64,000 bases of DNA from an uncultured Planctomycetaceae bacterium. Lineage in GTDB: Bacteria; Planctomycetota; Planctomycetia; Planctomycetales; Planctomycetaceae. Each line of letters starts with the position of its first letter. Position 1 is the first letter of the stretch. Position numbers and translations under genes: made by a program. Shown here piece by piece: positions 35,847 to 55,674 of the stretch. The notes under the pieces were generated by a model, which ran no database searches, had not been told where the DNA came from, and worked only from the letters and a program-made list of their open reading frames with translations. The stretch covers positions 896,001 through 960,000 of the forward strand of contig CAWFAK010000005.1 in NCBI GenBank assembly GCA_963813715.1, written 5' to 3'.

Positions 35847-37148
35847 CTACTTCACGTCGCCGTCGGTCGGTTGACCGAAGAGAGTACCGGCGGGCGAAAG
35901 GGCCCGCATGTAGACGCCCGAGTCCATGTTCTGGGACAGGGGCGACGCATGGCCGTCCGTGAAGCAAACGCAGAAGACGCCCGGATGGTTCGCGGCGGGA
36001 CGCGGCGCCTGGCCGTTCGTGGCCGTCAGCAGGTTCGAGTTCGGATCGGCGTCATTGAAGCCCGTGCCGTCCGTCAGGGCGAAGGTCACGGTTCGTTGCC
36101 AAGTTCGGCGTCTGCAATTCAGTGTTCGGCGGAGGCGGCGTCGTCACGATGTTGAACGAGCCCGTCGGCTTGGACGTGTTCACCGTGTAGAGCGTGGGGC
36201 TGGCCCCGCTCACCGGCGTGACGGCAACGCTGATGCCGAAGCCGATGTAACCGGTTTGCAGGTCACGGCGTGTCGGCAGCGTGGTGCCGCCGGTCGTGAG
36301 CGTGTTGATGTCGGCCCAGTAACCGGCGTTGACGTTCTCGGCAAGCAGGATCGTATTGCTGGTGCCGTCGCCGCGCTGGACGAAGTCCGTTGTGAGCGTG
36401 AAACCGCTGGGCTCATTTCGCCAGAAGACTCCGGTCGAGTAACCGATCTGCCTCCCGAGCGGCGTTTGCACGTTGGTGCCGGTTTGGACCGCCCTGTCCG
36501 TCCCAGTCGATCAACGTCGCGTCATGAGCGCCGGGCCCCATGTCACCGGCGAGTGCCCAGGTTGTGGCATTGATGTAGCCCGCGTTGGCGGCGTAGCTCA
36601 AACCGCCCGGCACGTTCTGATTGTTCGCATCGTCCGGGCAGGTGAGCGGCCCGATGATGTTGAGCGGGTTGACGACGTTCGTGGTCGTGTTGATCCCGGT
36701 GAAGGTCAGGAAGGCCGGCGTGCCGCCGCTGGTCGGATTCGGCTTGATGATGCCGCCGTTGTTGATGATCTGCCGCGAAATGGCCGGCTGATCCATGTAA
36801 CCGATGATCTGGGCGACCCACGACATGCCGGGGTTGCCCGTGGTGGTGCTCGTGCCAGCCGTGCTCAGCCGAACGGCCGGGTTTCCGGCGATGGGAGCTG
36901 TTTTCCAACAGCGGGTACTTGTCGCTGCTGCCGGTGGCGAAGTTGATGGTCGCCAGGCCGAGGTTGCGGATGTTGTTGAGGCACTGCGTACGGCGGGCCG
37001 CCTCGCGGGCGCTTTGCACGGCCGGCGAGACGAGCGAGATCAGCACGGCGATGATCGAAATCACCACCAAGAGTTCGATCAGCGTGAAGGCCGAGCGGGC
37101 CCCCGCGCGTGCGATCGAACGATGCGACTGCAGACGACTAGACTTCAT
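35847..37148 (-). CDS. DUF1559 (SBP_bac_10) prepilin-type protein with H-X9-DG C-terminus; frameshifted
   Basis: [61 protein letters not shown] and [13 protein letters not shown]. Confidence 0.92.
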
Positions 37149-37637
37149 TACGGTCTCCAATCCCCGAGGGAAATTTTGTGTTGTTGGTTTTCGTACCACG
37201 TCGAATGGGAATGCGTGGCCCGTTTCCTAACTGGCCGCCGTGACATGCGGCCGGTCCCAAACTAGCCGCTGCGACGAGCGGCCTTGTGTATCCTGCCGCC
37301 TGCTGCGGTTGTCTCGAATAACTCGCGTGTTCGCGAAGAACTCGAAACCGACCGCGTTGATTGCGGCAAACTCGATCTGGGCCACCCGAAGTGGCGGCTG
37401 ACAATCGATTCCAAAGCCGGCGAGGCCCCGCCGGACATCGGATGTTTATTTCAATCTATGATGAACCTGCCTTTGTCGCCGGGGCTGAATCGCCCGACGC
37501 CATTGTCAAGAATCAGGCATGGTGACTTCTCCATTATGCCGACTTGCGCCGTGATTTCGAGACCGAAATCCGATGCAAGCCTGCTCGAGCACTCAAATGG
37601 GCAATAGTGTACGTTTATGCGCTGGTCGCCCGGTCGG

Positions 37638-40600
37638 CTATTGAATCCGCTGTCGAAACAGAACCAGCGATTGGTAGTTGAAGGATCTGATTCGTACGAA
37701 AACACGAATTTGGCTCGTCGTTGGACGACGCAGGCAATATTGCGGTCCCATCAAGCTCAGAGCCTGCGACCGATCGATGACGAAAAAGCTCGCGGTAACG
37801 CCGGCGAACTGGGCAGCTTCGCCCCGATCCGAACAACGCCGTTGGGAGGGTTGACGTCCCTGGCCTGGAAGAAATCGATTTGGATCCAGACAAAGAAGAC
37901 GTTGCTGCGAGTCGTCGTATTCTGAAGGATCTTCGACAACACGCGGTCTTTAGTCGCATAGTCGACTACATCGGCCGCATGATCGGTTAGCCAGTCCCCA
38001 CCTCGAAGATCCGCCGACGGGCGTCCGGTGAGTTGGCCGGCGCCGCCGTCGCAGGGGGCGTGACCTGATCGCCCGTCAGAGCCCGCAGGATGGTCGAATC
38101 GAGCGTGCTGTTATAGCCGGATTGATCCTCGCCGCCCGTGGTCGATGCCGGCGCATTGGCGTAGGCCGAGAATCCCAGTCCGCGGAACGGGTGAGAGCCG
38201 GGCGCGACTGCGTTCGCGGTGCTGAGGACGTTCGCCCCGGTTGGCGGCGACCGTGCCGGAGGGATACCGCGGTAATCCGGGTATCGGCATATTGGTTCCG
38301 CCCATCGCAGGCGGGAGTGGATCGACGCCATCTCGCGCCGTGAGGAATTGCAGCCACCAATCGCGAGTGTTGGTGCCGACTGGAGGAGTTGGAGGATTGA
38401 CCACCGTGTCCCCGTTCTGATCCGGCAGCGAGAACGGAACCTGCAGGCCCGAGGGAAGGTTAAATTGTGCCGGGCTCGGGAACTGCGTCGAGAACAGCAG
38501 CCCGTAAATGTCATTTTCATCCAAGAGCCCTGCCAGCACGTCGGGATGTCGCACTGTGTTGAGATTGATCTTGCCGGGCGTGCGGTAGAAACCGAGCGAA
38601 CCGTTGATGGTTCCCGCCGTAATCTGATACGGCGGCTCCTCGAGCTGGCGGTGCGAACGGGTCGGCACTTCAACCAGTCCCAGCAGCCGGTGCCAGCGGT
38701 TCTCGGTTACGTCGGCAGCGGGATTCGGTGGCGTCAAGCCGCCACCCTCCGGATGTTGCAAGCGATAGCCGGCGACGCCGTATCCGTTGTAGTGCTGCCG
38801 CGCGGCCCCTGTGTCATTCGGCACGAAGTCGCTGCCGGCTAACACCTCCTGCGTATAAGGGGGCGCGGCAGGAGCGGTAATCGCCGTACCGGCTTCGTTG
38901 GTGCGCGTGGCCATCAGGTGCGTGAGACCCGAAGCCAGCGAGACCGAGCTGCCGGACGAAACGCCGGGAACGTTCATCGTGGTGGGGGACGCCGGTCCGT
39001 AAGGACCCCATGTCGGCACGTTGAACAGCTCAATGACCGAGGCGAAATCCCGATCGTAGTGCGGCTGGTAGAGCGGATGCGGCGGCGCGGCGGTCGGCGT
39101 TCCCGAAACGGTACCGGGATCGAAGCCGGCCGCGTCGTTGTCCTGGCCCAGGCTGTTGCCCTGCCACACAGTCGGCTTGAGCGTCGTCACGCCGCCGTTC
39201 CGCGGGTAGACGACGGCCGTACTCATGATGTAGGGGCCCTGCGGCGTCGCCGCGTTGGGCGATGCATTCGGGTTGAACGGATTGAGCGTGAAGTCGTGAT
39301 ACAGGGGCTGCGATCGCTCCGTGCTCACCAGGGGCATCGCTCCGCCCGTCGAAATATAGTGGTGGTAGGGCTGACCCGGCGACGGTGGGTCGGCGAGCAC
39401 AGCCGTGCTGCCGAGCTGGTTTTGAATCTGCGCAGAATAGTCGCTGGCGTTGCCGGTTTTCTTGAGGGCAAGCACGCTGACCGGCACGTCCATATGATCG
39501 ACGACGATCCACGGATTGTCGGCATTCTCGGTAAGCACATTGGGGTCTGTCGGCAGAATCGGCTGTGCGGTTGGGGTCGACGCGCCGTCGCAGCTCGACC
39601 CGGAGGATGAGGGCGCTCTCCGGAAAGATGTGGGCGCCGATCGCCGATGAGATCGTGCCCGTGGCCTCAACGATCGGATCCGTGAAGTTGAGCAGTTGGG
39701 TGCCGGGGCTCAAGCCGATCGGCGTGGTGATCAGGTTCGGAGAGCCGTCGGCATTGCCCGTGGGGTCAGCCGCGTTGGGCGGCACGATCCAATACTGCCC
39801 GTCCGTGCCCGTCTGTGTCAGGTCGAGATCGAGCGCGGTCGTGATGCCGAAGGGCGGGGCGGCGGGCGAGACGTAAGCCGATCGCGGAGCAATGGGGAAT
39901 TGATAGTCGAACCCCGTATTCGTCGGAGCACCGGACGTATCGTTCGGATCGATCACCAGGTAGCTGGGATTCGGGATGGCCGGGTTGGCCGTCGACCCGT
40001 TGATCTGGTCGTAGGTCACGCCGCCGACCGATCCGACCAATCCGCCGATGGTCATCCGCGGCTTGAATCCGCCGGAGGCGGCTCCAGCAACCAGTTGCGG
40101 CTGCGACGACTGGAAGATCAGGCGGCGTTCGCCGCTGCTGTTCGCGGTGCCGGCGCCGTAGAACGTCGAAGGCACCGTCACGATGGGAGACTGCTTGATC
40201 GCAATTTCCCATTGTTCGTTGACGAAGTTCACGTTCGAGGGGCCGATGTTATCCAGTTCCAGGTAAAGTGCGGCCCACTGGTTCCTGTCGTTCCACTGCG
40301 TGTCCGGGTGATCCCAGGAAACGTTGGGCGTGACCGTCGTATCGACGGCTTGCTGCAAGAAGGCGATCATTGCCTCGTTGAAGGCCAGCTGCTGCCGCTC
40401 GACGCCGTAGACCACGCCGCGGTCGGCGGCGGCGATGTTAAACGGCGGCTGCGTATCGGCGACCCCGTCGTACGCGTTGTCGTCGAGGTTCCACCCGTTC
40501 GAGAGGTCTTTGTCGTACTCGAAGACGGTGATGTTGCTATCCGGATCGAGCTGATCGACCAGGTTGACGGCAAACTGAGCCATCTCCTGCAACTGGTCGT

Positions 40601-43600
40601 CGGTATAGAGCGGGCGGACGCCGGCGACGGGCTGGTTCGAAGCCGTTGCGTAGTTCTGGTTGTCGTACCCGCCGCCCATCAGGTAGAGCAGCGTGTAGAT
40701 GTCCCGCGCCAGCCGCTGACGGTCGTAGCGGGCCAACCACTCCTGCTGCTGCACAGTCTGCCCGCCGTGCAGTTGTTCGGGTCGATGCTGATGCATGTAG
40801 CCGATACCGTCGGTCGTGTGCGCGGGACGGAACGATCGCCGTGTTGGGCAACGTGGCCGGCGGATTGGTCGCCGTCGGATGCGGCGTCAGCGGACGAATG
40901 CGGAACGTGAAAACCGGATTGCCGGACGATCGGATCCCGGTTTGAGTCTGTTCGGTGAGACCGTTGACGCTCAGCGGGTGTTGCGGCAACAACAGGGCGT
41001 TGCTTCCCAGTTGTTGCTTCGGATCGGCGAGCGTCCACAGCAGGTGAGCTACGTCCGGCCGCAGCGGATACGACGAGTATGTCGTTACCGTGATTGCGGC
41101 GCCTGGATCACTGGGTTCGGCCCCGGAGTTCCACCCGACGTTGGGCGGGAAACGGAACGGCCCAATACCGCTTCCACTGGTGTCCGTGAATTCCCACAAG
41201 GCGACGCGCGTCGTTAATCGGCGTCGTGTTCGAGTAGGCTCCCAGGAATTCCTTGCCGAACGACTTCAGAGTCCCAGCTGGCGGGGGTGAATCGCTGGCC
41301 GAATCTGCGACGGCGCGGGCGTTGGCGACAGGCTCAAGGGGCCAGATTCGCTGTAGCGGGCCGGACTGCCAAATCTGAGAAATCGGTGCCGCTGTATTGC
41401 AGCGAGCTTTCCGCAGGCGCCGAAGATGTTGTCCGAGGTTTGCGTCGCCGCGGCGGACGGCTCGGGAAGGTTTCGTCCGGCTCGTCGACAGGAATTGCGG
41501 GCCGCCTCCGGACATCAGGCCGCCGGAGAAGAAGTTCGTCCAGAGCACGCTGTTGTTGGTGAAGTAATTGGTGTACTGGGCGTACTTCTGTGCGCCCTGG
41601 GCGATCAGTTGCCGAACCTTTCCCTCCGTGCCGGTCACCCACGATCCCGCCGCGAAGACGTCGAGCGGCGTGACGAACGCGGGGTGAAGGATTCCCTGCT
41701 CATCCTGAAACTGCCCCGATTCGGCATAGTTGTTGTTGTCGTCGGCTGCTAGTGGTGGTGGCGGTGTATATAGAAACCCTCCCGACGTCCCGGGCAGCGG
41801 CCACGGATCGCCGCCGGGAGTGCCCAGCCCGCCTTGAACCGTCGTCCCGGCTAGCACCTGTTGGACGTTCGGATCGAGCCGGGTCAGGTTTTCGCCCCAG
41901 CGACCGGGAAGCTGGAGCCGCTGACCGTCGCCGGCGTGGTTGTCGGCGTGGCGCTCGGCGTCAACTGCGGGCGGCCGTTCAGGATGTTCCACCACTCCAT
42001 GTTCGCCAGCTCGTAATTGCCCGCGCTATGATCGTCGGTCGGCAGCGTGGTGCTTTGGGCCGGGCTGCGGAAGAAGGAGACATATTGCTGTAGAGCCGCG
42101 GCGACGGTGCCGGTCGTGGGAGCGTCGGCGGCGACTGCCGGGCGAGCATTAAAGGCCCACTCGATATTCACCTCCGACGCGCTGAGCCCCAGGTTCGAGC
42201 GGGAAATAAACTGCGTGGTGTTCGGCAAAGACCCCAGCTGCCGCCAAAGGGATTCGTGGGCAACCGGTGCCGGCACGACGACGCTGCCCGACCGGTTGCC
42301 ATGCGCGTTCAAGTTGTACAGGGCGTCGGCGTCGATGATCTTGCATCGCCGGCCATCGCGACGAATGCTGCGTGCCCGTCGGGCGTGGTCATCAGCGGGA
42401 AACCGAAGTCGATGTAATTCGCATCGGGAACGCCGTCGTTGTCGGTGTCGACGGCATAGTTGATGGTGGGCGGCGCCGCGGGATTGAGCGGCGTCGCGCC
42501 GTGGCGGACCAAACGCCTTCGGCTGGGGCGGTACGTCGTGGTCCCACTGGTCGCCAGGAATCGAGAAGGCCTGCAGCGAGATGTCGCTCCAAATCACGGT
42601 GCCGTCAGTTACGGTCGAACCTTGCGCCGTCGGCCAGACCGGTACTGTGCCGCCGCTGGTACCGGCCTGGGTGCACAGATAGTTGTACCCGTTGGCCGGA
42701 CTGGGCTGAACGATCTGGCCCACGGTGTAGGCGGTGGCTCGCGGCCCAGGTCGCTGCCGAAGTCGACGTGTCCGGATGGGCAGTTGGTCACGAAACGCTG
42801 GGCGTCGTGATGTTTCCGTTGTAGTCGATCGCCGTGTGCTCGACGTGCGGGTACATCACGTAGGGTGCGGTGAGCGGATCGACGTACCAATTCGCGAGTG
42901 GTACGTTCCCTGCTCCGCGAGCGGCCGTGGCGTTGCGCAGGAATTGCGGCCGATGGAACGACGGCGTGATCAGCCGCACCGGCTGCTGAGGTGAGCCGCT
43001 GAATGTGGCGGGAACGAGCCCGTCGTACGACAGGAAACGGGCTATTGATGTCGGGATAGGTCGAGTTGACGTCGGGGTCGGGATATAGATTCGGCGTAAG
43101 CGGATTTATGTTGGGCGGATAGTTGTTGAGATCGAGCGAGGTGGCGGTGGTCCAGGTCACGGTGCCGTCCGTCACGGTCGAACCGACCGTCGTGCCCCAG
43201 GTCGGCTCCGTCGTGCCCGAGGTGCCGGGAGTCGTCGCGATGTACAAGAAATTGGTTTGAGCGTTAGCGTTCGGCCGAACGAAGGCACCGGTGACAAACG
43301 CAGTATTGGCTTGCCAGGCGACGGCGGCCGACGGAGAGAGATTCAGGAAAGTCAACGCCCGATTGTCGGGCTCAGTCGGGATCGAGCCGTCGTCGGGGAC
43401 CTGATCATAGTTCTGGTCGACCGAGGCCTGGTTAAGCGCCGTGTTCCAAAACAGGTTGACGCCTCCCCCGTTGTAGGGGGAAGGTCGCGGCCGAACATCG
43501 TCGGCACGAGCGAGCGCGGCCGCCCCACAGCGCGCTTTGCTTTTCGATAGCGGCCGGACCGATGATGATCTGGCGCAGGACGTTGTTAAAGAACGTATCT

Positions 43601-43826
43601 GGGTCGAGTGCCGGCGTGGGGACCTTGGCGGCTGGGCGAATTGTCGAAATAGGTCGCGGCCTGGTTCTCCGACGCGGTATAGGCGAAGATGAAGAAACCG
43701 AGAGCGCGAGCATGCCCAGCAGGGCCAGCACGACGATGATCACGGTGCCCCGACGGGCTGCACGGCACGGCGAACACGGGATGTCAGCGGTTGGCCGAGC
43801 CGCGCGAGCAGTCGATAAGTCTTCAT
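37638..43826 (-). CDS. Giant (~2000 aa) PilX/GspK-like pilus-tip protein, putative adhesin; many frameshifts
   Basis: AGGAG RBS, N-terminal RRGTVIIVVLALLGML (prepilin-like, no Glu5), VDTDNDGVPD, RQRLARDIYTLLY, AQFAVNLVD, RTPGKINLN, TTRSNVFFVWI; C-terminus FNYQSLVLFRQRIQ*. Confidence 0.78.
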
Positions 43827-43886
43827 CGCATCGAACTCCTGCGAACGAGGGCGCGGCCCGCTCAGCCTCGTCGCGTTCGTAAAACG

Positions 43887-46091
43887 TCATTGCGTCAACG
43901 ACTGAACGATGGTCACCTGACGCAATAGGTTCTGGGTCGGGTCCAGGTATTTCACGGTGATTTGGATCGCCTGGACATTGAGTGGCGGGGTGGCATTCCA
44001 CTGCGCAGTCCCGTCGGTAATCGAATTCGCGTTTGGCGCCGGCGACATTACTGAGCTGATTCACGGTGTCGCCGAGCGAAAATGGATCCTGCTGATTTGC
44101 AGGCAGCGAAGCGAGTGGCTGTGATGTCCCCGCCGCCACGCACTGGTAGACATAGCCGTTCGCCGTGTCGATGGGGTCAACGAGCGTTCCCAGGGTGTAC
44201 GCGGTAGCTGGCTGCCAGGTATTACCGGTGCGCGGCCGGTAGGGGGCCGGCGCATTCGGCGACGCGGTGTCCGTCGCATCGTACGTTGCGCGCCACGTTG
44301 TCAAAAATGAAAGATGGATACCACGTATCGAACACGTTGTTGTAGTTGTAGGTGACTCCGTTGAAGGTGCGGGTAAACGCAGGGGCCCAAAGCGCCGAGG
44401 CGGGGGGCGCCGGGGCTGCAGGGACCGTATAGCCGCTATCGATCACCGGCCCATAGACCGGGAAGACGTTGTTCGCCTGAGCGAAATCGCCTGATGCCGC
44501 GTGCCCGATGTCCGCAAACCCGCCCGGCCCGGAGTCGATGACTCCATTTCGGTTTATGTCCAGGTTGACCGCTGTCTCCGAATAACGAGCGTCCCACAGT
44601 TTGACGTCGAAGCTGACGACGTTGGTCAAGAGGATGTCTTCACCGCGGCGAGGGCCTCCTGACAAAGATAAAGGGCTAGTCGGCGGATTTGCGTCGAGCA
44701 TCCACATCGTGTAGCTGGCTGAATCGATCGCTAAAAGCGAACCTGACCCCATTGGCGAAATAGGCGTCCCCGTGCCAAGCGGAACAAGCGGCAGGTTGCC
44801 GGGGAACTGAAAGTTTGGATTCGACGTTTCTTCGTGCGTATAGCGGCCGAAGAAAAACAACTGTGCCGGAACGCTTCCAGCCACCGTGTTCGCGGTGCTG
44901 TTGAACTGGAACGCGTATTCGCGAGGCGCTCCATAGAAAATCGTAGGGGTCGTTACAGGCGGCGTAGCCGGGAGGGGGTATGTCTGATCGAATCCGAAAC
45001 GATTGTCGGGCCGGCCGATCGGTAACGGCGCACCCGACGCCGAATTGTCCAGAGAGTTGACCGCCGTTGCCATTCGTCAAGAAATTCACGCCGGGGTGGT
45101 TCCCGGTGCTGATCCGCGCGGAATAATCAAAGTCAGTCCAAAAGTTCCCGCTTCCCGCGCCCGCCGGGTACGGCGGATAGGCGTTCGGGATCAAGGGCGA
45201 GGGGGCAGCAGTGCCGTCATTCGGCTGCGCATTAGTAAAGCCGGTGGTCGGATCGTAGGGCTGGCGAATCAACAGGACCCTACGATAGAGGTTTCCATGC
45301 CGCAGGAAATAAGTGATCTCCGCGAACTGCGAGGCGCCGGTGTTATTCGGACTTCCGCCGGGGGGATTGAGCGTGGGGCTGCCATTCGCGAACACAATCT
45401 GTTCGTCGTCGCCGTCGGGCTGGTCGAGTGGACATGCGATTGTGGTCCATGTCCCACCGCCGTCGCCAACAGTGTTGCCGATAGTGGTGGGCCAAGTCGG
45501 CTCCGTGGCACCGCTTGTCAGCGTACCCGCCCCCTCGTTCTTGTAAGCGAAACCGGCATTCAGCGATGGATTCAACGGCCGCACAACCGCGCCGGCCGCA
45601 TAGTTGGTGCCACTTTGCCACTGGGGGACCAGGAAAAGCCCTCGACCGTAGAGATAGTTCCCGGCAGCGGGATTATTGAACAGACTGAGGCCGGTATTGC
45701 CGCTGCCCATGTTGATCGTGAACTGAAGGACGTCGTCGGTGTCGTCGGTTGGATCGTTCTCCGAGACGTACAAATACCCCTGTCGACTTCCTGGGGTCAG
45801 CGCGGTCAGCGATGCCGTGCTCATATTTGGGTGGAACGGGGCCACGAGCCGCATCGTTCGCGCTTCCAGGTCGGTTTTCAGAACCGTCGTGAGGATTCGC
45901 GCACTTTGATCGTTCTCTCCGATCCCTTTCTGCCTGGTGACAAAGGTCCCCGTCATCTGAAAGATCGTCGCGAACATCGTCATCATCATCAGGGTCAACG
46001 CCAGCACGACGAGGACCTCGATCAGGGTGAAACCCGACGCCGGCTGACGCCGGGACGCCGTGTGGAGCTGCTTGTGCGCGCGGAGAGTCAT
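43887..46091 (-). CDS. Prepilin-type minor pilin, PilW/GspJ-like (~730 aa); frameshifted
   Basis: SGFTLIEVLVVLALTLMM, DDVLQFT, AEITYFLRHGNLYRRVLL, RGEDILLTNVVSFDVK; C-terminus AIQITVKYLDP..RQVTIVQSL. Confidence 0.85.
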
Positions 46092-46104
46092 AGCTTCGGG
46101 CCAA

Positions 46105-47479
46105 TCACTTGAGCGACAGAGGATATTCATCGACCACGCCCCGCATGAAGAGGACGCCGAAATTCAAGCTCGTCGTCACGTCGGACTGCGGCCGCGCACT
46201 GTCGACATAGATTTGGACGGAACTGCCCGTGTCGTTGGCGATGTTGCTGATGCGGTACCAGCGGCCAAAGTAGCAGTCGAACAAGAACCCCCCCTTCTTG
46301 TAGAAGGGTTTTTTGCCGGACGGATAGTTGACGGTGAAGGGGCTCTGCGCGCCATCGGCACCCGTAGCCTGGTAGACTTGCTCGTCGCTGGCGACCAGCG
46401 ACCGATTGAAAAAGACGGTGACTGTGACGTTCCAGGCGGGAAGCTTCGAGCCTGGCTGGGCCGGCGGGTTCGGGCGCACCGTCAGCATCCAGGTATATCG
46501 CCTGTCCTGCATTTCCACGCGAGCTGCCACGGGATTAAAGGTGGGCCCCAACCCATCGGCGTTAGCCGCGCCGCCCCAACTGACGACGCCGGTGGCGACG
46601 TTGACTCCCGTAACGATCCGCGTCTCGCTCGCCTTCACATTCGATGTGGGATTGAGAGCTGAGTTGTTGTAGCCGAGCATTACCACGCGCCAGGCGACCG
46701 GTGTTGGAAACGCTGTGGCGGGGGATGTCGGCGAAGCAGGCGCTCCTGGTCCCGTCGTTGGAACGTCCACGCTCAAACCAGGAATAGTCACCGAATTGGC
46801 CGTGAATGTCGTCACCGGCCCGCGAGCCTGCTCAATCCAACTGTCCGGCAGCGTGGCTCCAAGCACGGCTGTGCCAGCCGTGGAGAGTTCCCCGTTAAAA
46901 CGAGGCAGCGAGTTCGTGTCGACCCCGCCCGCGCCATTGTTCCCAATATTGGTCTGCAGCGGCGCCCCTAAGGTGTTCCAGCCCAACGGATCGATCACGA
47001 AGCAAGGCGGATAGGGGAGCCCGGCGGTGTTGATCGAGCTCGTGTACTGATTCGCGCCAGCCGCCGTCCATACGAGACTGCCGGTGCCATCAGTCGTTGT
47101 TGCGGCCGGCGCAGTATTCCAAGACCGGCGCCACTGCTCCCGAAGTCCCCGCTGTTGTGACATTCAGGCCCGACAATGTATTGGTCAGTGCATTCGTCAC
47201 GACGATCGTGTCGCCAACGTTGTAAGCCTGGTTCGGCCGCCACCGCAGCATGAGGTTCTGGTTGAAGTCCGACAAGCACTCGGCGTTGAATCGCAGGATC
47301 GTCCCGTTTGTCAGGTTCGTCGCCTGCACGGCGCGGACAAACGAGAGAGGCAACAAAACGATCACCGATGCGATGCCGATGCCCGCCACGAGCATCGACA
47401 TCAGAACTTCGACCAGCGTCAAGCCGGCGTAAGAACGGATCGCCGGCACAGAGGCCGATCGCGGCGGCACGCACTTCAT
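46105..47479 (-). CDS. Prepilin-type minor pilin, PilV/GspI-like; frameshift near 47122
   Basis: AGLTLVEVLMSMLVAGIGIASVIVLLPLS, RRYTWMLTVR, VTVTVFFNR, GRWYRI; ATGA overlap with the upstream gene. Confidence 0.85.
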
Positions 47480-48612
47480 TGGGTTACCTCACCGGTCTCG
47501 GCGTAGCGGAACTTGTCGAGGGGGTTGACAGGGCTCGTCGTGATGCGGCCGGTCGAGGTCGCCAGCGACACGATGATCCGCGGCTTGGGGCTATAGCACT
47601 GCCACATCACCGTCCCGTCGCTGAATGGGGGCGTGCCCGGTGTGGCCGTGAAGAATTGCGGCGGCTGCGTTCCCGACGACTGGCCGCCCTGGGTGCATTG
47701 AAAGACCAGGTCGTTCTGCGGATTGGGGACGACCCAGCTCGTCGGCTGCGCGGCGCTTGGCTGATAGTAGGTTGTGTTGGCCTGCCAGGTGCTAGTGCTA
47801 TCCAGGAGGGGCACGCCGCTGATGTTTCCGGGTGGGCTCGCCTGCGGGATCGAGGCATCCACATATTCGGAGAACACGAAATGGATGCGGCCAGCCGCCG
47901 CGACCGTCCCGGTCACCGTTCCGTTGGGAGAGAAGAGGACGTCGAGCGAGCCGGTGATGGCCCCCGGCGATCCCCAGGTGGGAGGCAGCACGCTGTTATC
48001 CAGATCGATCACGATATTCTGCGGCAGCGCCGGGGTTCCTCGCCGGGAGTGGGCGAAGGCAGAAGCTGCATCGTATAGGTCGTTGGGGATGCCCCGCTGT
48101 AGGGTGCGGTGAGGGTCCACGTTCCTCCATTGCGGGCCATGGAGTACGTCGTGCCGCCCAGAGTGATATTGGCGCCGTCCGTCAGCAACCCGCGTTGAAC
48201 GAGCGTTGTCCACGATGCCGGTGGCGTCGAGATCGTGCTAGTGGCGTCCCGCGGTGGTGATTGTGATCTGTGTGCCGTCGGTGAATGTCGACGGCGCGCA
48301 CGACGTAGACGAAGCTGTGCACGGCCGAGCGGTCGTTCGGATCCTGGATCAGCCGTACGCCGCGCGGCTGGCCGGCGTGACCGCGCGGTCGCGAGCACCG
48401 GCAAGGAACGATTGGAATTCCCTCGCGGCGTTACGGATGCGGTCCGAATTGAGCGTGGCATTGAGGAGCCGCATCGTGAGCGTCGCCAGGATCAGGATGA
48501 TCCCCAGCGAAACCAGCAATTCCAGCAGCGTGAACGAAGCGCGATACCGCCTGCGCGCCGCCGGCCTTCCGCGAACGGAGCGAGACAGAAATGTTCTTGG
48601 GTGGCGATTCAT
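47476..48612 (-). CDS. Prepilin-type minor pilin, FimT/FimU/GspH-like; frameshifted
   Basis: ASFTLLELLVSLGIILILATL, RIRNAAREFQSFLAGARDRA, LDVLFSPNGTVTG; ATGA overlaps at both ends. Confidence 0.85.
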
Positions 48613-49869
48613 TGCTGATGATTCGTAATGAGCGTGTAAAGCGCGGTCACGCCAGTAATGAGTCGGGTCCGTGGCCCCCATTTGAGGCGGTTGGGGCTCC
48701 GCGAGGTTGCCGTGATTGGCCGTATCGTAGGGCTCATAAAGTCCGAACATGAACCCGGTCTGCTTCGGGTCGCCGTTATCGAGGTCGGTCGCCGTGGAGA
48801 CGATCAGCGGCGTGTTCCACGTGTTGGGAGTTTCATACGGCTCGCTCACCAGGCCCGTGGTAATCAACCCCAGCGGATCGTCCGGATCGACCGAGAGTGG
48901 ATCGACCATCGCCTGCCAGATGACGTTGGGAGGAGTCCCCGTGCTCGGATCCCCAATCGTGTTGCCCACGTTTGGGGCATTGCTCCACGTGGGCTCAGTC
49001 CCACTCGATTTGGCCGACCCGTTAATCGCGACGCAACGATAAACAAACGAGAACGGGCTCGCTTGCGGCGGCGTTTGGGGAAGAATCGTTGTCCCGACGG
49101 CATACGTCGTATTGGGCTGCCAGGTCGCCAACTGGTTCCGCGGGGCAGCCCCTCCCATCAGAATGGTCGCCGGCGACAGCGGGGTCTCTTCGGAAGATTT
49201 GTCGCCGTCCCGGTGGGCGGTCCGCCAGGCCGGACGAGCCGCGTCGGCCAGCGGTAGAAGCGGAGCGGATGCCCCCACGCGTCGACGATTTCCGGAAGGC
49301 CATCGTTGTCGGTGTCGGCCGTTTCGATCGCTTTGAGGTCGCGGCGCTGGGCGGCTCGGTGTCGAACAGCGGGCCCTTCGTGAGAACAGGTAGAGGCATT
49401 CGGACTGTCGGTCACTGCGACGTGCGACGTGCCGCGCGGATTGGCATTTTGAATCGTCTGCGGCAGTTCGGAAAACATTTGCGGAAAGTTCAGCTGAAAA
49501 GCGTACTTGACCGCGATGACCTTGGCTTGCACCGGAATGTTGTCGCCGAACAGACCGCCAGAAGCGCGGGGCTGACGTACGAGGGCGGATTGTCGTCGCT
49601 GCCCGCGATCTGATCTTGTTTCTGGATCCAGCGGCGAAAGCCGTTGATGCGGTCGTTGAGCATCTCGTCGACTTTCTTGATCGTCGCCTCGCGTGGCGGC
49701 GACTTTCGACGCGTTGGCCACGCGGGGGATCACGGCCACGATGGCGGCCGTCAGGAACGCGATCAGTCCGATCACGACCAGGATTTCGATCAGCGAGAAC
49801 CCGCGCCGTGCGCGACCGCGCTGCGGCGCGCCGTCTGCCGGGCCGAGAGGAGGGGCTGGGGCGGCTCAT
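48609..49869 (-). CDS. Prepilin-type (GspG-like) protein; frameshifted
   Basis: RGFSLIEILVVIGLIAFL, DTDNDGLPEIVDAWGHPLRFYRWPT, TPLIVS; C-terminus ITNHQQ*. Confidence 0.83.
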
Positions 49870-50016: not shown

Positions 50017-51062
50017 TTAGGGCGCCAGCGGTCCCGAGGAAAAATTGGTGATGTTATCGCGCTCTCCCGAGCGCGTTCCGACCAACAGGCCCTTGGGATC
50101 GCCCTGACTCGTATTCGCCACCGGTGCCCGTAAGCGCTGGTCGAAGCCGGGCGAAATAATCTGAAAGGAGTTGGGGTTCCAGGGCGGCGAAGGGACTCGA
50201 CGTGGTGGATCCGTTCGGGCCTTGCCGGTAGACGTCGGTAAACGTCGGCTCCAAGGGAGGGCTGGCCGGCAGCTCGTTGGTGACGTCGTAACCCTGCCCG
50301 TCGTAGCTGCTGAGATAGAGATAGGGCTGACTCTGCCCGGGAAGCGTGTCCTTGTAGGTGTTCATCGTATGCGGCAGCGAGCCGCCCGATGGCGGCTTAG
50401 CGGAACAGGCGGCTCGCGTCGAACTCCGTGAAGCGTTCGCGGTTGGTGCCGACCACGGTGCGGATCGTCGCGTGCCGTTCCATCACAGTGACACCGAAGG
50501 GATCAGCAGGATTCGTGCGAAAACCCCGCCGGCGCTCCGCCGAACCGAGCAGCGGGTTAGTTGTGTTGGTCGGATTCTGGTAAGGCGACGGAACGCCGCC
50601 CAGGAAGAAGACGAGGCACTCCGACTCCGGTCAGCGGGATCGCCCCGGCTGAGGGTGTCGTCGTAAGCCGTCGCCGGTGAAGTTGCCGTCGCCGTTGATG
50701 TCGATCTGGCCCCCTTCGGCCGCGTAGGTGAAGTCGAATTGCGGCCAGATCTGGCGGATGATCCCCATCGAACGCGGGTCGCTGTTCCAGCCGGAGGCCT
50801 GCTCATAGAGCGTGATGCGGCTCGGCGGCTCGACGCTGAATCTTTGCTTGAAGGCGGCAATTCCCTTGCCGAGGTCGCTGATGTCGACGCCGACCTGGGC
50901 GTTGCGGGCCTTGATGTTGGCCGAGCCGGCCACGGTCAGGATCAGGCTGGCGAGGATGCCGATGATGGCAATGGCGATCAACAGCTCGAGCAGCGTGAAG
51001 GCTGCCGGAGCACGGCGGGGGCGGGCCGGGCGACGGGAGCGCCCCGGGGCAGAGCATTGCAT
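50017..51062 (-). CDS. Prepilin-type (GspG-like) protein; frameshifted
   Basis: AAFTLLELLIAIAIIGILASL, IDINGDG, ECLVFFLGG, PYLYLSS, FQIISPG; C-terminus DNITNFSSGPL. Confidence 0.85.
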
Positions 51063-51250
51063 GGGCGGCAGACTCCTTCTGGGTCCAAGTTTCAGGGGCC
51101 CGTTGGCCAGGTTAACGCGCGGTTTTTGCTGCCGATGCTTAGGCCACCGCGAGTTTTGGAAACAACGGGAACCCAGAACGCTGGGACGAGCCGTGAACGT
51201 TCGCTTTTTCGGACTTTGGATACACGCTTGGGACGGACTGACCTGGCCCG

Positions 51251-52603: not shown

Positions 52604-54316
52604 TCACTCGACGTCTTCCATGACGGTCTCGCGCACCACTTCGTCGATCGTCGTCACTCCGTCAAAAATCAGCTTGAGGCCCGACTCCCGCAGGGTGGTC
52701 ATTCCCTGGGTGCGGGCGAAATTTCGAATATCGTCGACTGACGCGTCCGAGGTGATCATGTCGCGAACGTCGTCGTTGATCTCCAACAATTCGTAAAGGC
52801 CGGTGCGGCCCTTGTAGCCCGAGTTGTTGCACCGGGCGCAGCCCTTACCGTAATAAAAGCCGTATTGCCGGGCCTGGTCGATGGGCAACTGCAACTCCAT
52901 CAGGAGTTCGTCGCTAGGCTCGAACTCGGTGCGGCACTCCGTGCAAATCTTGCGGACAAGTCGCTGTGCAAGAATGGCTTCGAGAGTCGCCGTGATCAGG
53001 AAGGGTTGCACGCCCATGTCGCGCAGACGCGTGATGGCAGACGGCGCGTCGTTGGTGTGCAGGGTGCTGAAGACCAGGTGCCCGGTGAGCGCGCTTTGAA
53101 TGGCGATTTCCGCCGTCTCGTAGTCGCGGATCTCCCCGACGAGAATCACGTCCGGGTCGTGCCGCAGAATCGCGCGGAGCACGTTGGCGAACGTGACTTC
53201 GATATCGGGATTGACGGGAACTTGAATCAGACCGTCGATTTCGTATTCGATCGGGTCTTCGGTGGTGATGATCTTGGTCGAAACTTCGTTGAGCTCGTTG
53301 AGCGCGGAATAGAGCGTGGTGGTTTTGCCGCTGCCGGTCGGTCCCGTCACCAGCACGATGCCGTTGGGGTTGCGAATGATCTGGCGGAAGCGCCGCAGGA
53401 TGGTCGCGTCCATGCCGATCTTCTGCAAGTCGAGCTGCACGACCGTGCGGTCGAGCACTCGCATGACCACCGACTCGCCAAACATCGTGGGGAGCACGCT
53501 GACGCGGAGGTCGACCGGGTTGCCGCCGACGTTGAGCTCGATTCGGCCGTCCTGCGGCAGCCGCCGCTCGGCAATGTCGAGCTCCGCCATGACCTTGATA
53601 CGCGTGGTGATTGCGTTGGCCAGATGCCGCGGGGGCGGCACCATCTCGTACAGTACGCCGTCGGCACGAACGCGGATCTTGAACTCATCCTCGAAGGGCT
53701 CGAAGTGGATGTCGCTCGCCTGGTCCTTGATCGCCAGGAGGAGCACCATGTTGAGCAGCTTGCGGACGGGTGCGGCCGACGCGATTTCCTCGTCCGACGC
53801 CAGGTCGAAGGCGGCCTCCTCCTCATCGCCCTTGTCGAGCCCCGCCTCCTTCAGTTGATCGATCACTTCTTCGATGCTGTCCTGCTTGTCGGCGTAGTGG
53901 CGCTCAATCGCTTGCTCGACGTCGGCAAGGTTCGAGACGGCCCCCCGCACGTCGTAACCGAGAAAGTTGCGCAGGTCGTCCAGTGCGGCCACGTTCTGCG
54001 GGTCGGCCATCGCGACGGTGAGCACGTTGTTCTTGAGCGAGACGGGCATGATCTTGTAGATGTCTGCCATCGTCTGTGGCACGATTTCCAGCACGTTGGG
54101 CGGGATGTTCGTCTCCGCCAGGCTGACGACCGGCATGCCCCATTGCTCAGCGAGGGCTTCGGTCACCTGCGCCTCGGTGACGAGTCCCATGCGGATCGCC
54201 ACCTGCCCGATGATTTCCCCGGGACTTTGCTTCTGCTCTTCGAGCACGTCCCAGAGCTGGTCCTCGGTGAGATACCCGAGGTCGACCAGGATTTGCCCCA
54301 GACGTCTCTGTGCCAT
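52604..54316 (-). CDS. pilB: Type IV pilus assembly ATPase (PilB/GspE), copy 2
   Basis: N-terminal RLGQILVDLG, ASDIHFEP, GPTGSGKTTT, EDPIEY, DPDVILVGEIRD, TGHLVFSTLH, tetra-Cys motif. Confidence 0.95.
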   Translation of the reverse strand: MAQRRLGQILVDLGYLTEDQLWDVLEEQKQSPGEIIGQVAIRMGLVTEAQVTEALAEQWGMPVVSLAETNIPPNVLEIVPQTMADIYKIMPVSLKNNVLTVAMADPQNVAALDDLRNFLGYDVRGAVSNLADVEQAIERHYADKQDSIEEVIDQLKEAGLDKGDEEEAAFDLASDEEIASAAPVRKLLNMVLLLAIKDQASDIHFEPFEDEFKIRVRADGVLYEMVPPPRHLANAITTRIKVMAELDIAERRLPQDGRIELNVGGNPVDLRVSVLPTMFGESVVMRVLDRTVVQLDLQKIGMDATILRRFRQIIRNPNGIVLVTGPTGSGKTTTLYSALNELNEVSTKIITTEDPIEYEIDGLIQVPVNPDIEVTFANVLRAILRHDPDVILVGEIRDYETAEIAIQSALTGHLVFSTLHTNDAPSAITRLRDMGVQPFLITATLEAILAQRLVRKICTECRTEFEPSDELLMELQLPIDQARQYGFYYGKGCARCNNSGYKGRTGLYELLEINDDVRDMITSDASVDDIRNFARTQGMTTLRESGLKLIFDGVTTIDEVVRETVMEDVE

Positions 54317-54549
54317 GCGCCTCGGACTCCGACGACGGGGACGTCGTCTCGCGGACTTTAGTTCGTCGCGGGAACAAAACCCGCGGCTCGATCTTCGGTT
54401 CGACGACCGGTGGGAATTGACCGGGATCTCGGTGAACTCGACGGCAGCCACGCCGAAGGCCGGTCCAACCGGCTTTCGCCGCGCGTCACGCGGTCTCGTT
54501 CATCTTTTCGCCACGCTTGTATTTGCCACTCGTTAGCGGAATCGGGCCT

Positions 54550-55674
54550 TTAATCTTCGTCCTCTTCGACCTCTTCATCTTCTCCGGATTCATCGTCAAA
54601 GAGTCCGCGCTTGGCACGTTCCAACTTCGCCTTGAGTTCGCCCGGATGATTGGACTTCATCACGATGTCCTGCTCTTCGACCAAGCCGTTCTTCCACAGG
54701 TTGAACAGTGCGTCGTCGAGCAGCTGCATGCCGAATTTCCGCCCCGTCTGGATCGACGAGTTGATGCGGTATGTCTTGTTCTCCCGGATCAGGTTGGCGA
54801 TGGCCGGCGTCACCACCAGCATCTCGTAGGCGGCCACGAGCCCCTTGGGCTTGCGCGGCAACAGGGCCTGACTGAGGATGCCGATGATCGACGTCGACAG
54901 CTGCGTCCGGATCTGCTCCTGCTGACTGGTCGGGAAAACGTCGATGATCCGGTCGACCGTGCCTTGGGCACCGGTCGTGTGCAGCGTGCCGAATACTACG
55001 TGTCCCGTCTCGGCAGCGGAAATGGCGGCCGAAATCGTCTCCAGGTCGCGCATTTCTCCGACCAGGATCACGTCGGGGTCCATTCGCAGCACGCGACGCA
55101 GCGCCTCGGGGAAACTCGGCACGTCGACGCCGATCTCCCGTTGGTTGATCATCGATTTCTTGTGTTGGTGGTAGTATTCGATCGGGTCTTCGATCGTGAT
55201 GATGTGATGATCGTGGTTGTTGTTGAGCCAATTGATCATGCTGGCGAGGCTGGTCGTCTTGCCGCTTCCAGTCGGACCGGTGACCAGGAACAGGCCGCGA
55301 GGCCGGGTGATCACGTCTCGGACGGCTGCAGGCAGCCCGAGTTGCTCGAAGGTGAGGAAGTCGCGCGGGATCTGCCGCAGCACCATCGCGATGTGACCGC
55401 GCTGTTTGAAGACAGACACGCGGAAGCGGGCTTTATCGCCGTAGGCAAAGCCGAAGTCGGTCCCCCCAACTTCTTGCAATTCCTGCTGGTTGCGTTCGGG
55501 CGTGATGCTCTTCATCAGCGCCGTGGTGTCCTCGGGTCCGAGGGTCTTGGTCTCGAGCCGAACCAGGCGACCGTGCCGCCGCACGCACGGCGGTTGGCCG
55601 GTCGTGATGTGCAGGTCGCTGGCCCCCTCCTTGACCACCGTTTCGAGCAGTTTGTCGATTTGGATTGTGGGCAT
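54550..55674 (-). CDS. pilT: Type IV pilus retraction ATPase PilT
   Basis: ASDLHI, GPTGSGKTTS, TIEDPIE, QREIG, DPDVILVGEMRD, AAETGH, AIANLIRE, GMQ. Confidence 0.95.
   Translation of the reverse strand: MPTIQIDKLLETVVKEGASDLHITTGQPPCVRRHGRLVRLETKTLGPEDTTALMKSITPERNQQELQEVGGTDFGFAYGDKARFRVSVFKQRGHIAMVLRQIPRDFLTFEQLGLPAAVRDVITRPRGLFLVTGPTGSGKTTSLASMINWLNNNHDHHIITIEDPIEYYHQHKKSMINQREIGVDVPSFPEALRRVLRMDPDVILVGEMRDLETISAAISAAETGHVVFGTLHTTGAQGTVDRIIDVFPTSQQEQIRTQLSTSIIGILSQALLPRKPKGLVAAYEMLVVTPAIANLIRENKTYRINSSIQTGRKFGMQLLDDALFNLWKNGLVEEQDIVMKSNHPGELKAKLERAKRGLFDDESGEDEEVEEDED

What the first reader, a model, noticed from the sequence alone, without database searches (positions are those of the whole stretch)
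42589..49122. One putative glycan-binding module inserted seven times across five consecutive minor-pilin/tip genes
Seen in the sequence: a ~55-75 aa module recurs in otherwise dissimilar proteins. GspG-like, 48916-49122: WQPNTTYAVGTTILP..FVYRC..SSGTEPTW..GNTIGD..VIW. FimT-like, 47602-47787: WQANTTYY..VVPNPQNDLVFQCTQGGQSSGTQP..DGTVMW. PilV-like, 47068-47242: WRPNQAYNVGDTIV..TTAGTSG..W..TTTDGTGSLVW. PilW-like twice, 45447-45620: WQSGTNYAAGAVVRP..TSGATEPTWPTTIGNTVGDGGGTW, and 43998-44217: WQPATAYTLGTLVDP..NGYVYQCVAAGTS..ITDGTAQW. Giant PilX-like twice, 43152-43316: WQANTAFVTGAFVRP..YIATTPGTSGTTEPTWGTTVGSTVTDGTVTW, and 42589-42748: W..TAYTVGQIVQPSPANGYNYLCTQAGTSGGTVPVWPTAQGSTVTDGTVIW. Established: W-x5-Y-x2-G-x2-V..Y resembles CBM5/12 (chitin-binding type 3) domains, and FimU/PilV/PilW/PilX-type minor pilins form the pilus tip complex. 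Inference: a retractile pilus whose tip presents about seven aromatic-rich binding modules for multivalent attachment to polysaccharide or cell surfaces. The module appears to have spread between neighbouring genes at different positions. I know of no description of this arrangement.
Basis: partly seen in the sequence, partly recalled or inferred. Interest (0 to 1): 0.9.

Follow-up and report, generated by a model that had tools for sequence, protein, structure and literature searches.

The report
Phage-type module studs pilus tip proteins
In an uncultured soil bacterium and its relatives, five neighbouring pilus proteins carry seven to nine copies of one small protein knob that is otherwise typical of virus particles, probably to make the pilus tip sticky, though what it sticks to is unknown.

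Summary
Seven copies of a ~58-aa module sit at the stated coordinates in five consecutive prepilin genes and nowhere else in the genome; a profile built only from non-pilin copies finds all seven. The frameshifts look like assembly errors (intact orthologues). Nine genomes of this Planctomycetaceae genus carry 7-9 copies at 13 sites; other genera carry 0-3, so the module is an insert, not pilin core. Copies group by site, not by genome.

The interpretation needs correcting. The module has the CBM5/12 fold, but its conserved W/Y residues map to the chitinase A1 hydrophobic core, and both known chitin-binding signatures are absent. Its nearest solved structures are in phage Pam1 tailspike and Carin-1 tail (Z 7.6, 5.7). 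The family (14,733 clusters) decorates many phage virion proteins, a contractile injection system and pilins of other phyla.

Best reading (about 0.55): a retractile type IV pilus whose tip subunits accumulated a promiscuous decoration module for weak, multivalent adhesion to an unknown surface ligand. Modular pilins are known; this multi-gene arrangement was not found in print. New variant of a known kind.

The parts
48916..49122 (-). Module copy 1, in gene 2 (site g2@276)
47602..47787 (-). Module copy 2, near the C-terminus of gene 3 (site g3@296)
47068..47242 (-). Module copy 3, directly after the N-terminal helix of gene 4 (site g4@83, shared with other genera); frameshift inside
45447..45620 (-). 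Module copy 4, gene 5 N-terminal site (g5@175)
43998..44217 (-). Module copy 5, gene 5 C-terminal site (g5@575, shared with other genera); frameshift near 44045 absent from short-read contigs
43152..43316 (-). Module copy 6, gene 6 first site (g6@191); AlphaFold2 model pLDDT 92.6
42589..42748 (-). Module copy 7, gene 6 second site (g6@305); frameshift just after the first Trp
50017..51077 (-). Gene 1: prepilin (weak GspG match), no module; limits approximate, frameshifted
   Evidence: PF07963; TIGR01710 below cut-off for the orthologue; tblastn
48609..49869 (-). Gene 2: prepilin of unassigned class, 1 module; limits read from translation, frameshifted
   Evidence: N-methylation motif seen in the translation; orthologue 447 aa intact; no NCBIfam hit
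47476..48612 (-). Gene 3: FimT/GspH-like prepilin, 1 module
   Evidence: PF07963; TIGR01708 E 2e-7, below cut-off, for the orthologue
46105..47479 (-). Gene 4: PilV/GspI-like minor pilin, 1 module plus two other inserted beta-barrels
   Evidence: model of G007 orthologue pLDDT 91.3; XcpV/GspI/EpsI Z 6.7-6.9 over 80-87 residues; JGI names 'PilV'
43887..46130 (-). Gene 5: PilW/GspJ-like minor pilin (class inferred from gene order and motifs), 2 modules
   Evidence: PF07963; tblastn
37638..43826 (-). Gene 6: giant PilX/GspK-like protein (~1,950 aa in intact orthologues; class inferred from position and a hydrophobic N-terminus without Glu5), 2 modules
35847..37199 (-). Gene 7: DUF1559 prepilin, no module
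   Evidence: PF07596 and PF07963
51251..52507 (-). PilC/GspF platform protein
52604..54451 (-). PilB/GspE-type extension ATPase 1
   Evidence: TIGR02538 635.5 bits vs cut-off 675.65
54550..55674 (-). PilT/PilU retraction ATPase
   Evidence: TIGR01420 446.1 bits vs cut-off 319.1
55806..57503 (-). PilB/GspE-type extension ATPase 2
   Evidence: TIGR02538 614.7 bits

Best explanation
The locus builds a retractile type IVa-like pilus (PilB, PilT, PilC: shown by family hits). Genes 3-6 are H/I/J/K-type minor pilins (gene 4 shown by fold; the others inferred) that, by analogy with characterised systems, cap the filament. A ~58-residue autonomously folding beta-module of the CBM5/12 superfamily has been inserted into loops of these subunits. 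Its two ends lie next to each other, so it can enter a loop without breaking the host fold (inferred from the model and from 15 different sites). Two sites are old in the family; this genus added 5-7 more and has kept them. The assembled tip would show 7-9 small knobs. Like Ig-like domains on phage particles, each probably binds weakly to a surface polymer (cell-surface or matrix glycan most likely), and avidity plus retraction gives attachment. It does not use the canonical chitin-binding face. The ligand and the binding itself are inferred, not shown.
For: Insert status and distribution. Retention by site (49.3% same-site vs 36.3% between sites in one genome; nearest neighbour at the same site for 60 of 68). 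80 of 91 gene-4 homologues carry it, 13 of them twice or more. Separate domain in the full pilin model (residues 59-135 match 7EEA, Z 6.4, rmsd 1.8). Outside pilins it recurs in outward-facing parts of extracellular machines: receptor-binding tailspike of Pam1 (Z 7.6, rmsd 1.6, 51 residues), tail fibres, baseplate wedge, major tail, sheath, head closure, head decoration, and CIS12/CIS13 proteins. Fold relation to chitin-binding CBM12 (Z 4.2-4.9). Apparently separate recruitment into pilins elsewhere. Precedent: PilC lectin pilin of S. sanguinis (PMC9934059); PilX1/PilX2 of Nanosynbacter bind host wall glycans (abstract).
Against: No binding data exist here. Known binding aromatics are absent, and the one extra Trp (column 42) co-varies with P18, V50 and Y27, which suggests core packing; no exposed aromatic face is identified. 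The module is less conserved than the rest of gene 4 (0.57 vs 0.63 identity). Several orthologous loci in the family work without it. Tip location is by homology only, and gene 2's class is unassigned. A structural phage review calls carbohydrate binding by the analogous Ig-like domains unverified (PMC8718954).
Confidence: 0.55

Rival explanations
1. Canonical chitin/cellulose-binding tip: seven CBM5/12 domains stack aromatic faces on crystalline polysaccharide.
For: CBM5/12 fold and core; 16 of 59 copies hit PF02839 at E<=0.05; near-identical sequence in soil, peat and rhizosphere runs; one GH18 gene in the genome.
Against: Columns matching ChiA1 W687 are 1-2% aromatic in 80 pilin copies, and no two adjacent columns form a conserved YW/WW pair. 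No window copy reaches the Pfam cut-off (best 20.6 vs 26.2 bits; 0 matches in the genome). Phage modules score above chitinase CBMs in the fold search.
Confidence: 0.12
2. Steric shield or spacer: the knobs mask the tip from pilus-dependent phages or proteases, or extend its reach, with no ligand of their own.
For: Sites differ between genomes of the genus; surface residues are variable and Thr/Ala/Gly-rich while the core is fixed; the module is less conserved than its host.
Against: Gains are kept across the genus rather than turned over quickly. The same module sits on phage receptor-binding proteins, which a pilus-shield role does not explain.
Confidence: 0.13
3. Protein-protein module: copies bind each other or a secreted partner, stabilising the tip or bundling pili.
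For: Found in structural virion proteins such as head decoration and baseplate wedge; one copy or more per tip subunit.
Against: Orthologous tips assemble from genes with 0-2 copies; insertion sites are too variable for fixed contacts.
Confidence: 0.1
4. Near-neutral accretion: an easily inserted domain piles up in tolerant loops with little benefit.
For: Termini are adjacent, and copies even nest inside each other in other pilins; site occupancy is patchy.
Against: All 7 copies in the genome are in this locus and none in the other ~50 prepilin-type genes. Core W/Y/P/D residues are 86-99% conserved. Copies have been kept since the genus ancestor.
Confidence: 0.1

Closest known systems
Modular type IV pilins (S. 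sanguinis PilB/PilC; Raynaud et al. 2021, PMC8179133; Shahin et al. 2023, PMC9934059; author names recalled)
   Same: Adhesion-type module grafted on a minor pilin and predicted at the tip; 264 architectures reported, among them IPR012902-IPR003610 in 1 protein.
   Different: Here one small module is inserted internally, 7-9 times, across five genes of one locus, at 13 sites within one genus; PilB and PilC carry different, large, C-terminal modules with proven ligands.
CBM12 (Bacillus circulans ChiA1 ChBD, 1ED7) and CBM5
   Same: Fold and core residues (Z 4.2, rmsd 2.5, 44 residues; HMM E 0.003-0.004).
   Different: About 14 residues longer; lacks W687 and the YW/WW pair; has conserved S35, P40, W42 and D52; below the Pfam cut-off in the window; not attached to a glycosidase.
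Unnamed module in cyanophage Pam1 tailspike (7EEA 588-642), Carin-1 tail (8CK1 chain A 214-282) and PHROG 20658 'head decoration'
   Same: Full-length sequence and structure match (7EEA Z 7.6, rmsd 1.6, 33% identity; PHROG hit by 43 of 59 copies, best E 2.7e-15; BFVD TM up to 0.90).
   Different: Carried by virion proteins, not pilins; I could not read the Pam1 or Carin-1 papers, so any stated function there is unchecked.
Ig-like domains on tailed phages (as reviewed in PMC9853417 and PMC8718954)
   Same: Works like them: a small domain appended to many unrelated surface proteins and proposed to bind glycans weakly.
   Different: Different fold; here also on bacterial pili and a contractile injection system.
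GspH-I-J-K / FimU-PilV-PilW-PilX tip complex
   Same: Gene order and gene 4 core fold (XcpV Z 6.9, GspI and EpsI Z 6.7).
   Different: Subunits are much larger (about 400-1,950 aa) through inserted domains; no PilY1 gene was looked for.

Membership tests
CBM5/12 (PF02839) | Score at or above the Pfam gathering cut-off (26.2 bits) | tested here: not met
   3 of 7 window copies hit at 14.9-20.6 bits; 0 matches in G000; 16 of 59 copies at E<=0.05, best 5e-6, which is near the cut-off
CBM5/12 superfamily fold | Small twisted beta fold with W/Y/V/Y/C/W core | tested here: met
   Model pLDDT 92.6; CBM12 domains Z 4.2-4.9, rmsd 2.2-2.5, 44-46 residues (middling Z); core residues align to 1ED7
CBM12 (ChiA1 ChBD type) | Surface Trp equivalent to W687 | tested here: not met
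   Columns 37-38 are 2% and 1% aromatic in 80 pilin copies; mapping from the HMM alignment to 1ED7; role of W687 from PMC3701571
CBM5 | Two consecutive conserved surface aromatics (YW/WW) | tested here: not met
   No two adjacent columns both exceed 15% aromatic; columns 30-32, the expected place (recalled), are 0-1%; feature
CBM5/12 | Binds chitin or cellulose | not testable with these tools
   needs binding assays
CBM5/12 | Exposed aromatic platform on the surface | tested here: inconclusive
Modular type IV pilin | Class III signal peptide / N-methylation motif | tested here: met
   PF07963 over cut-off for genes 3 and 5, 20.7 vs 21.2 bits for gene 4; motif seen directly in gene 2; gene 6 has a hydrophobic N-terminus without Glu5
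Modular type IV pilin | Extra non-pilin domain on a pilin core | tested here: met
   Gene 4 model: discontinuous GspI-type core plus module at 59-135 and two more barrels
Type IVa pilus | PilT retraction ATPase with PilB and PilC | tested here: met
   TIGR01420 446 vs 319 bits; PilB/GspE and PilC/GspF hits just below their equivalog cut-offs
Type IVa pilus | PilMNOPQ alignment/secretin complex | tested here: inconclusive
   One PilM and several secretins elsewhere in G000; which serve this pilus is unknown
HIJK tip complex | Subunits have H, I, J, K folds and assemble at the tip | tested here: inconclusive
   Only gene 4 was folded (Z 6.7-6.9 to GspI types); gene 3 weak GspH hit; genes 5 and 6 and assembly not tested
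HIJK tip complex (T4aP) | PilY1 adhesin partner | not tested
   not searched

The most novel reading that the evidence does not exclude
A single CBM5/12-derived decoration module is a shared adhesion part of phage virions, contractile injection systems and type IV pili. Bacteria took it from phage into pilins several times, and this planctomycete genus put it on almost every tip subunit, so that the pilus tip recognises microbial cell-surface glycans the way a phage does (cell-cell attachment, grazing or parasitism rather than polysaccharide feeding). The locus would then be a tractable way to find the ligand of a 14,000-cluster orphan family.
Probability: 0.3. Interest if true: 0.78.

Novelty: new variant of a known kind. 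Interest (0 to 1): 0.56.

Why it matters
It shows stepwise accumulation of one module over a whole pilus-tip operon (0, then 2, then 7-9 copies within one family), which gives a natural series for testing avidity at type IV pilus tips. It also exposes a large unnamed family (14,733 clusters at 50% identity) that annotation misses or calls chitin-binding although it lacks the chitin-binding residues, and that links phage virions, contractile injection systems and pili. Planctomycete pili and their giant minor pilins have had little functional study in the papers my searches returned.

Tried and rejected
Concerted evolution or recent copying within one genome: rejected; copies at different sites are no more alike within a genome (36.3%, 217 pairs) than between genomes (36.0%, 1,838 pairs), and only 2 of 21 window pairs show any DNA match, of 28-29 bases. 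Universal pilin core: rejected. Pseudogenes: rejected as unlikely. Single origin versus repeated import: inconclusive; other-site pilin copies are barely closer than non-pilin copies (36.2% vs 34.8%; 37 of 64, where the non-pilin set was chosen by a pilin-trained profile), and the AU test neither rejects nor shows one clade (p 0.178; 31 pilin and 28 other rows, 58 columns). Homodimer prediction of the module: no answer, score 0.00, not evidence either way. Foldseek on the PDB gave no match at E<=0.001 for the module (best 7EEA, E 0.021) or for gene 4. NCBIfam has no model for the module. Pattern-based locus scans are insensitive for this module (3 loci in genomes, 22 in viral contigs). ESM Atlas: unnamed, mostly viral clusters at 0.95-0.96, recognition value below the reliable mark. 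RNA runs X16 and X17 cover 24 and 23 of 30 bins as contigs, which does not show transcription. Earlier-finding look-ups by place and sequence were empty. The Carin-1 paper is not held; the Pam1 paper appeared only as a reference. A-1(L) and A4 phage papers mention CBMs, but I did not test whether they are this module; the A-1(L) neck-fibre CBM showed no binding to its host. Gene limits for genes 1, 2, 3 and 6 are read from the translation and tblastn, so they are approximate.


Full report
Observation. They align with a shared pattern of W, Y, G, V-x-P, Y-x-C, G-T-S-G, P-x-W and D-G-x-V-x-W. A profile of the seven finds only these seven in G000. As an independent test, a profile from 416 non-pilin modules ranks them first to seventh among 128,808 six-frame segments (iE 8e-20 to 4e-4; next 0.082). 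The window's genes are broken by many frameshifts. Orthologues in G006, G007 and G009 are intact, and short-read contigs of near-identical organisms show one-base indels at the breaks (12 rows shown, 58 more not shown), so these are most likely assembly errors.

Locus. In order of transcription: PilB-type ATPase, PilT (446 vs cut-off 319 bits), second PilB-type ATPase, PilC/GspF, six prepilin-type genes and a DUF1559 prepilin. Genes 2-6 carry 1, 1, 1, 2 and 2 modules. An AlphaFold2 model of the G007 gene 4 orthologue (74 sequences, pLDDT 91.3) has a discontinuous core that matches XcpV, GspI and EpsI (Z 6.7-6.9, rmsd 2.4-3.0, 80-87 of 83-89 residues), with the module as a separate domain at residues 59-135, right after the N-terminal helix. 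These Z values are middling. Gene 3 has a weak GspH hit; genes 5 and 6 are assigned by order and N-terminus only; gene 2 is unassigned. PilM and secretins lie elsewhere in the genome. A motif scan lists 53 prepilin-type starts in G000, with a separate four-gene cluster on C17; none outside this locus has the module. A relative at 78% module identity is titled uncultured Planctomycetaceae (L078). Near-identical DNA occurs in soil, peat and rhizosphere runs (4 of 24 listed runs laid).

Distribution. Of 12 genus genomes, 10 match. Nine have 7-9 matches, all in this locus (G005's nine include one copy split in two). G010 has one, with the locus running off a 9-kb contig. G001 and G004 (65% and 74% complete) have none and also lack a match to gene 5. 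In a phylum sample, 35 of 401 genomes match; in the family 19 of 24, with 1-2 copies (at most 16 candidates scored per genome). I fetched 10 of those 19 and all had the copies in the orthologous locus. Orthologous loci with no copy were seen in G013, G014 and G019 (genes 1-6 present), G020 (partial), and G025, G032, G034, G036 and G040 of other families. Mapping on module-free alignments gives 13 sites within the genus and 15 overall; two (g4@83, g5@574) are shared with seven genomes of other genera. Among 91 gene-4 homologues, 67 have one copy, 12 two, 1 three and 11 none. Copies group by site: 49.3% identity same-site, 36.3% between sites in one genome; nearest neighbour at the same site for 60 of 68 (90 modules). 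So gains are old and inherited vertically, with some later gain and loss. Whether new copies came from neighbouring genes or from outside could not be decided.

What the module is. The model is confident (pLDDT 92.6, all-beta). Best solved matches: Pam1 tailspike 7EEA (Z 7.6, rmsd 1.6, 51 aligned), Carin-1 tail 8CK1 (Z 5.7), then CBM12 domains of chitin enzymes (Z 4.2-4.9) and Anabaena contractile-injection-system proteins (Z 3.4-4.0). Sequence profiles hit the same two entries, 1ED7 (E 0.004) and 7EEA (E 0.009). 43 of 59 copies hit PHROG 20658, head decoration. Predicted viral structures match with TM up to 0.90. The family is large: 14,733 clusters at E<=0.001. Of the best 150, I read 7 as pilin-like from their N-termini. 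I scanned 59 of the 150 in Pfam, and 38 chosen proteins (carriers plus two neighbours) in PHROGs; they include minor and major tail proteins, tail fibres, sheath, baseplate wedge, head-tail adaptor and head closure. An Acidobacteriaceae locus has the module in three neighbouring genes (2, 2 and 8 copies), two of them CIS12- and CIS13-like. Pilins elsewhere carry it too: three other Planctomycetota genomes, a Syntrophorhabdus-type PilV family with up to six part-matches, and a PilX/Tad-like protein. In L081 and L082 only one pilin gene has it, so the multi-gene spread is not general.

Binding surface. PMC3701571 (passages) lists W656, Y662, V668, Y670, Y675, C677, L695 and W696 of ChiA1 ChBD as core and W687 as the surface binding residue. 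The bioRxiv and JBC versions of the Cellvibrio CBM paper (passages) give the YW/WW pair as the CBM5 binding signature. The module's W4, Y10, V16, Y27, C29 and W57 correspond to that core (W57 by position in the fold, beyond the HMM alignment). The W687 position is 1-2% aromatic, and no adjacent conserved aromatic pair exists (80 pilin and 585 other copies). The extra W42 (W 71%, F 14%, L 8%) co-varies with P18, V50 and Y27 (804 sequences, mean-field coupling), as if it replaces Y670 in the core; gap-driven couplings weaken that analysis, and burial could not be measured.

Mechanism. Shown: insert status, fold, conservation by site, PilT, and the GspI-type core of gene 4. Inferred: tip location, outward display and ligand binding. 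I favour weak multivalent adhesion to a surface polymer (0.55), because the family recurs on outer parts of extracellular machines, including a receptor-binding tailspike, descends from a glycan-binding fold, and is confined in this genome to pilin genes. Rivals: canonical chitin binding 0.12, shield or spacer 0.13, protein scaffold 0.10, near-neutral accretion 0.10.

Prior work. Modular pilins are established: more than 1,200 proteins and 264 architectures (bioRxiv 2021.01.27.428410, passages); the supplement of PMC8179133 lists pilin + IPR003610 for one protein (3 files searched). Glycan-binding tip pilins are shown in S. sanguinis (PMC9934059, passages) and Nanosynbacter (abstract and outline). 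Promiscuous Ig-like domains on phages are the closest analogy in behaviour (PMC9853417 and PMC8718954, passages). An eCIS fibre catalogue has no mention of CBM or chitin in its main text (PMC12923769; supplements not read). Searches (listings) returned no description of one module spread over a minor-pilin operon, nor a name for this family. The Pam1 and Carin-1 papers were not readable and may discuss the domain. Three earlier scan notes describe CBM5/12-like repeats in single PilX-like proteins of other genomes (unchecked), so the pilin-plus-module pairing is recurrent; what is special here is the spread across five genes.

Verdict. Real, conserved and not found in print as an arrangement; a new variant of modular pilins with an unexpected link to phage virions; ligand unknown. 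Interest 0.56.

Noticed in passing
P0052, P0089, L081:8956-10356, L082:8980-9954: Modules nested inside one another (several N-halves followed by C-halves) in a PilX/Tad-like protein and in Syntrophorhabdus-type PilV pilins; shows the module can insert into its own loops.
   Followed up: partly
L079:49-11728: Acidobacteriaceae contractile injection system locus with the module in three neighbouring genes (2+2+8), a parallel multi-gene spread; several top hits look like the same large protein.
   Followed up: partly
L011:4741-6003 (gene 4 orthologue), model residues 196-288 and 331-410: Two further inserted beta-barrels whose best matches include phage tail domains (lambda J, T5 pb9; Z about 7, a common barrel type).
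   Followed up: no
window 48919-49129: One short-read contig (run X1) fits both flanks but skips the gene 2 module, letters between not known; may be a relative with a divergent or missing copy.
   Followed up: no
P0007, P0024, P0057, P0066 and similar: A group of signal-peptide proteins with 7-10 copies of the module and no other Pfam domain among those scanned.
   Followed up: no
P0134: Multiheme cytochrome-like protein carrying four copies of the module.
   Followed up: no
G000:C17:52643-54633: Separate cluster of four short prepilins, probably a type II secretion set; most of the other prepilin starts in the genome look like DUF1559 types.
   Followed up: no
G000 C5, C8, C11, C16, C17: The same 55-residue segment appears at six places in the six-frame scan, probably a repeated element such as an insertion sequence.
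   Followed up: no
window 37638-43826: Gene 6 encodes a ~1,950-aa PilX/GspK-like protein with no Pfam or NCBIfam hit; orthologues of about 1,600-2,200 aa occur across the class.
   Followed up: no
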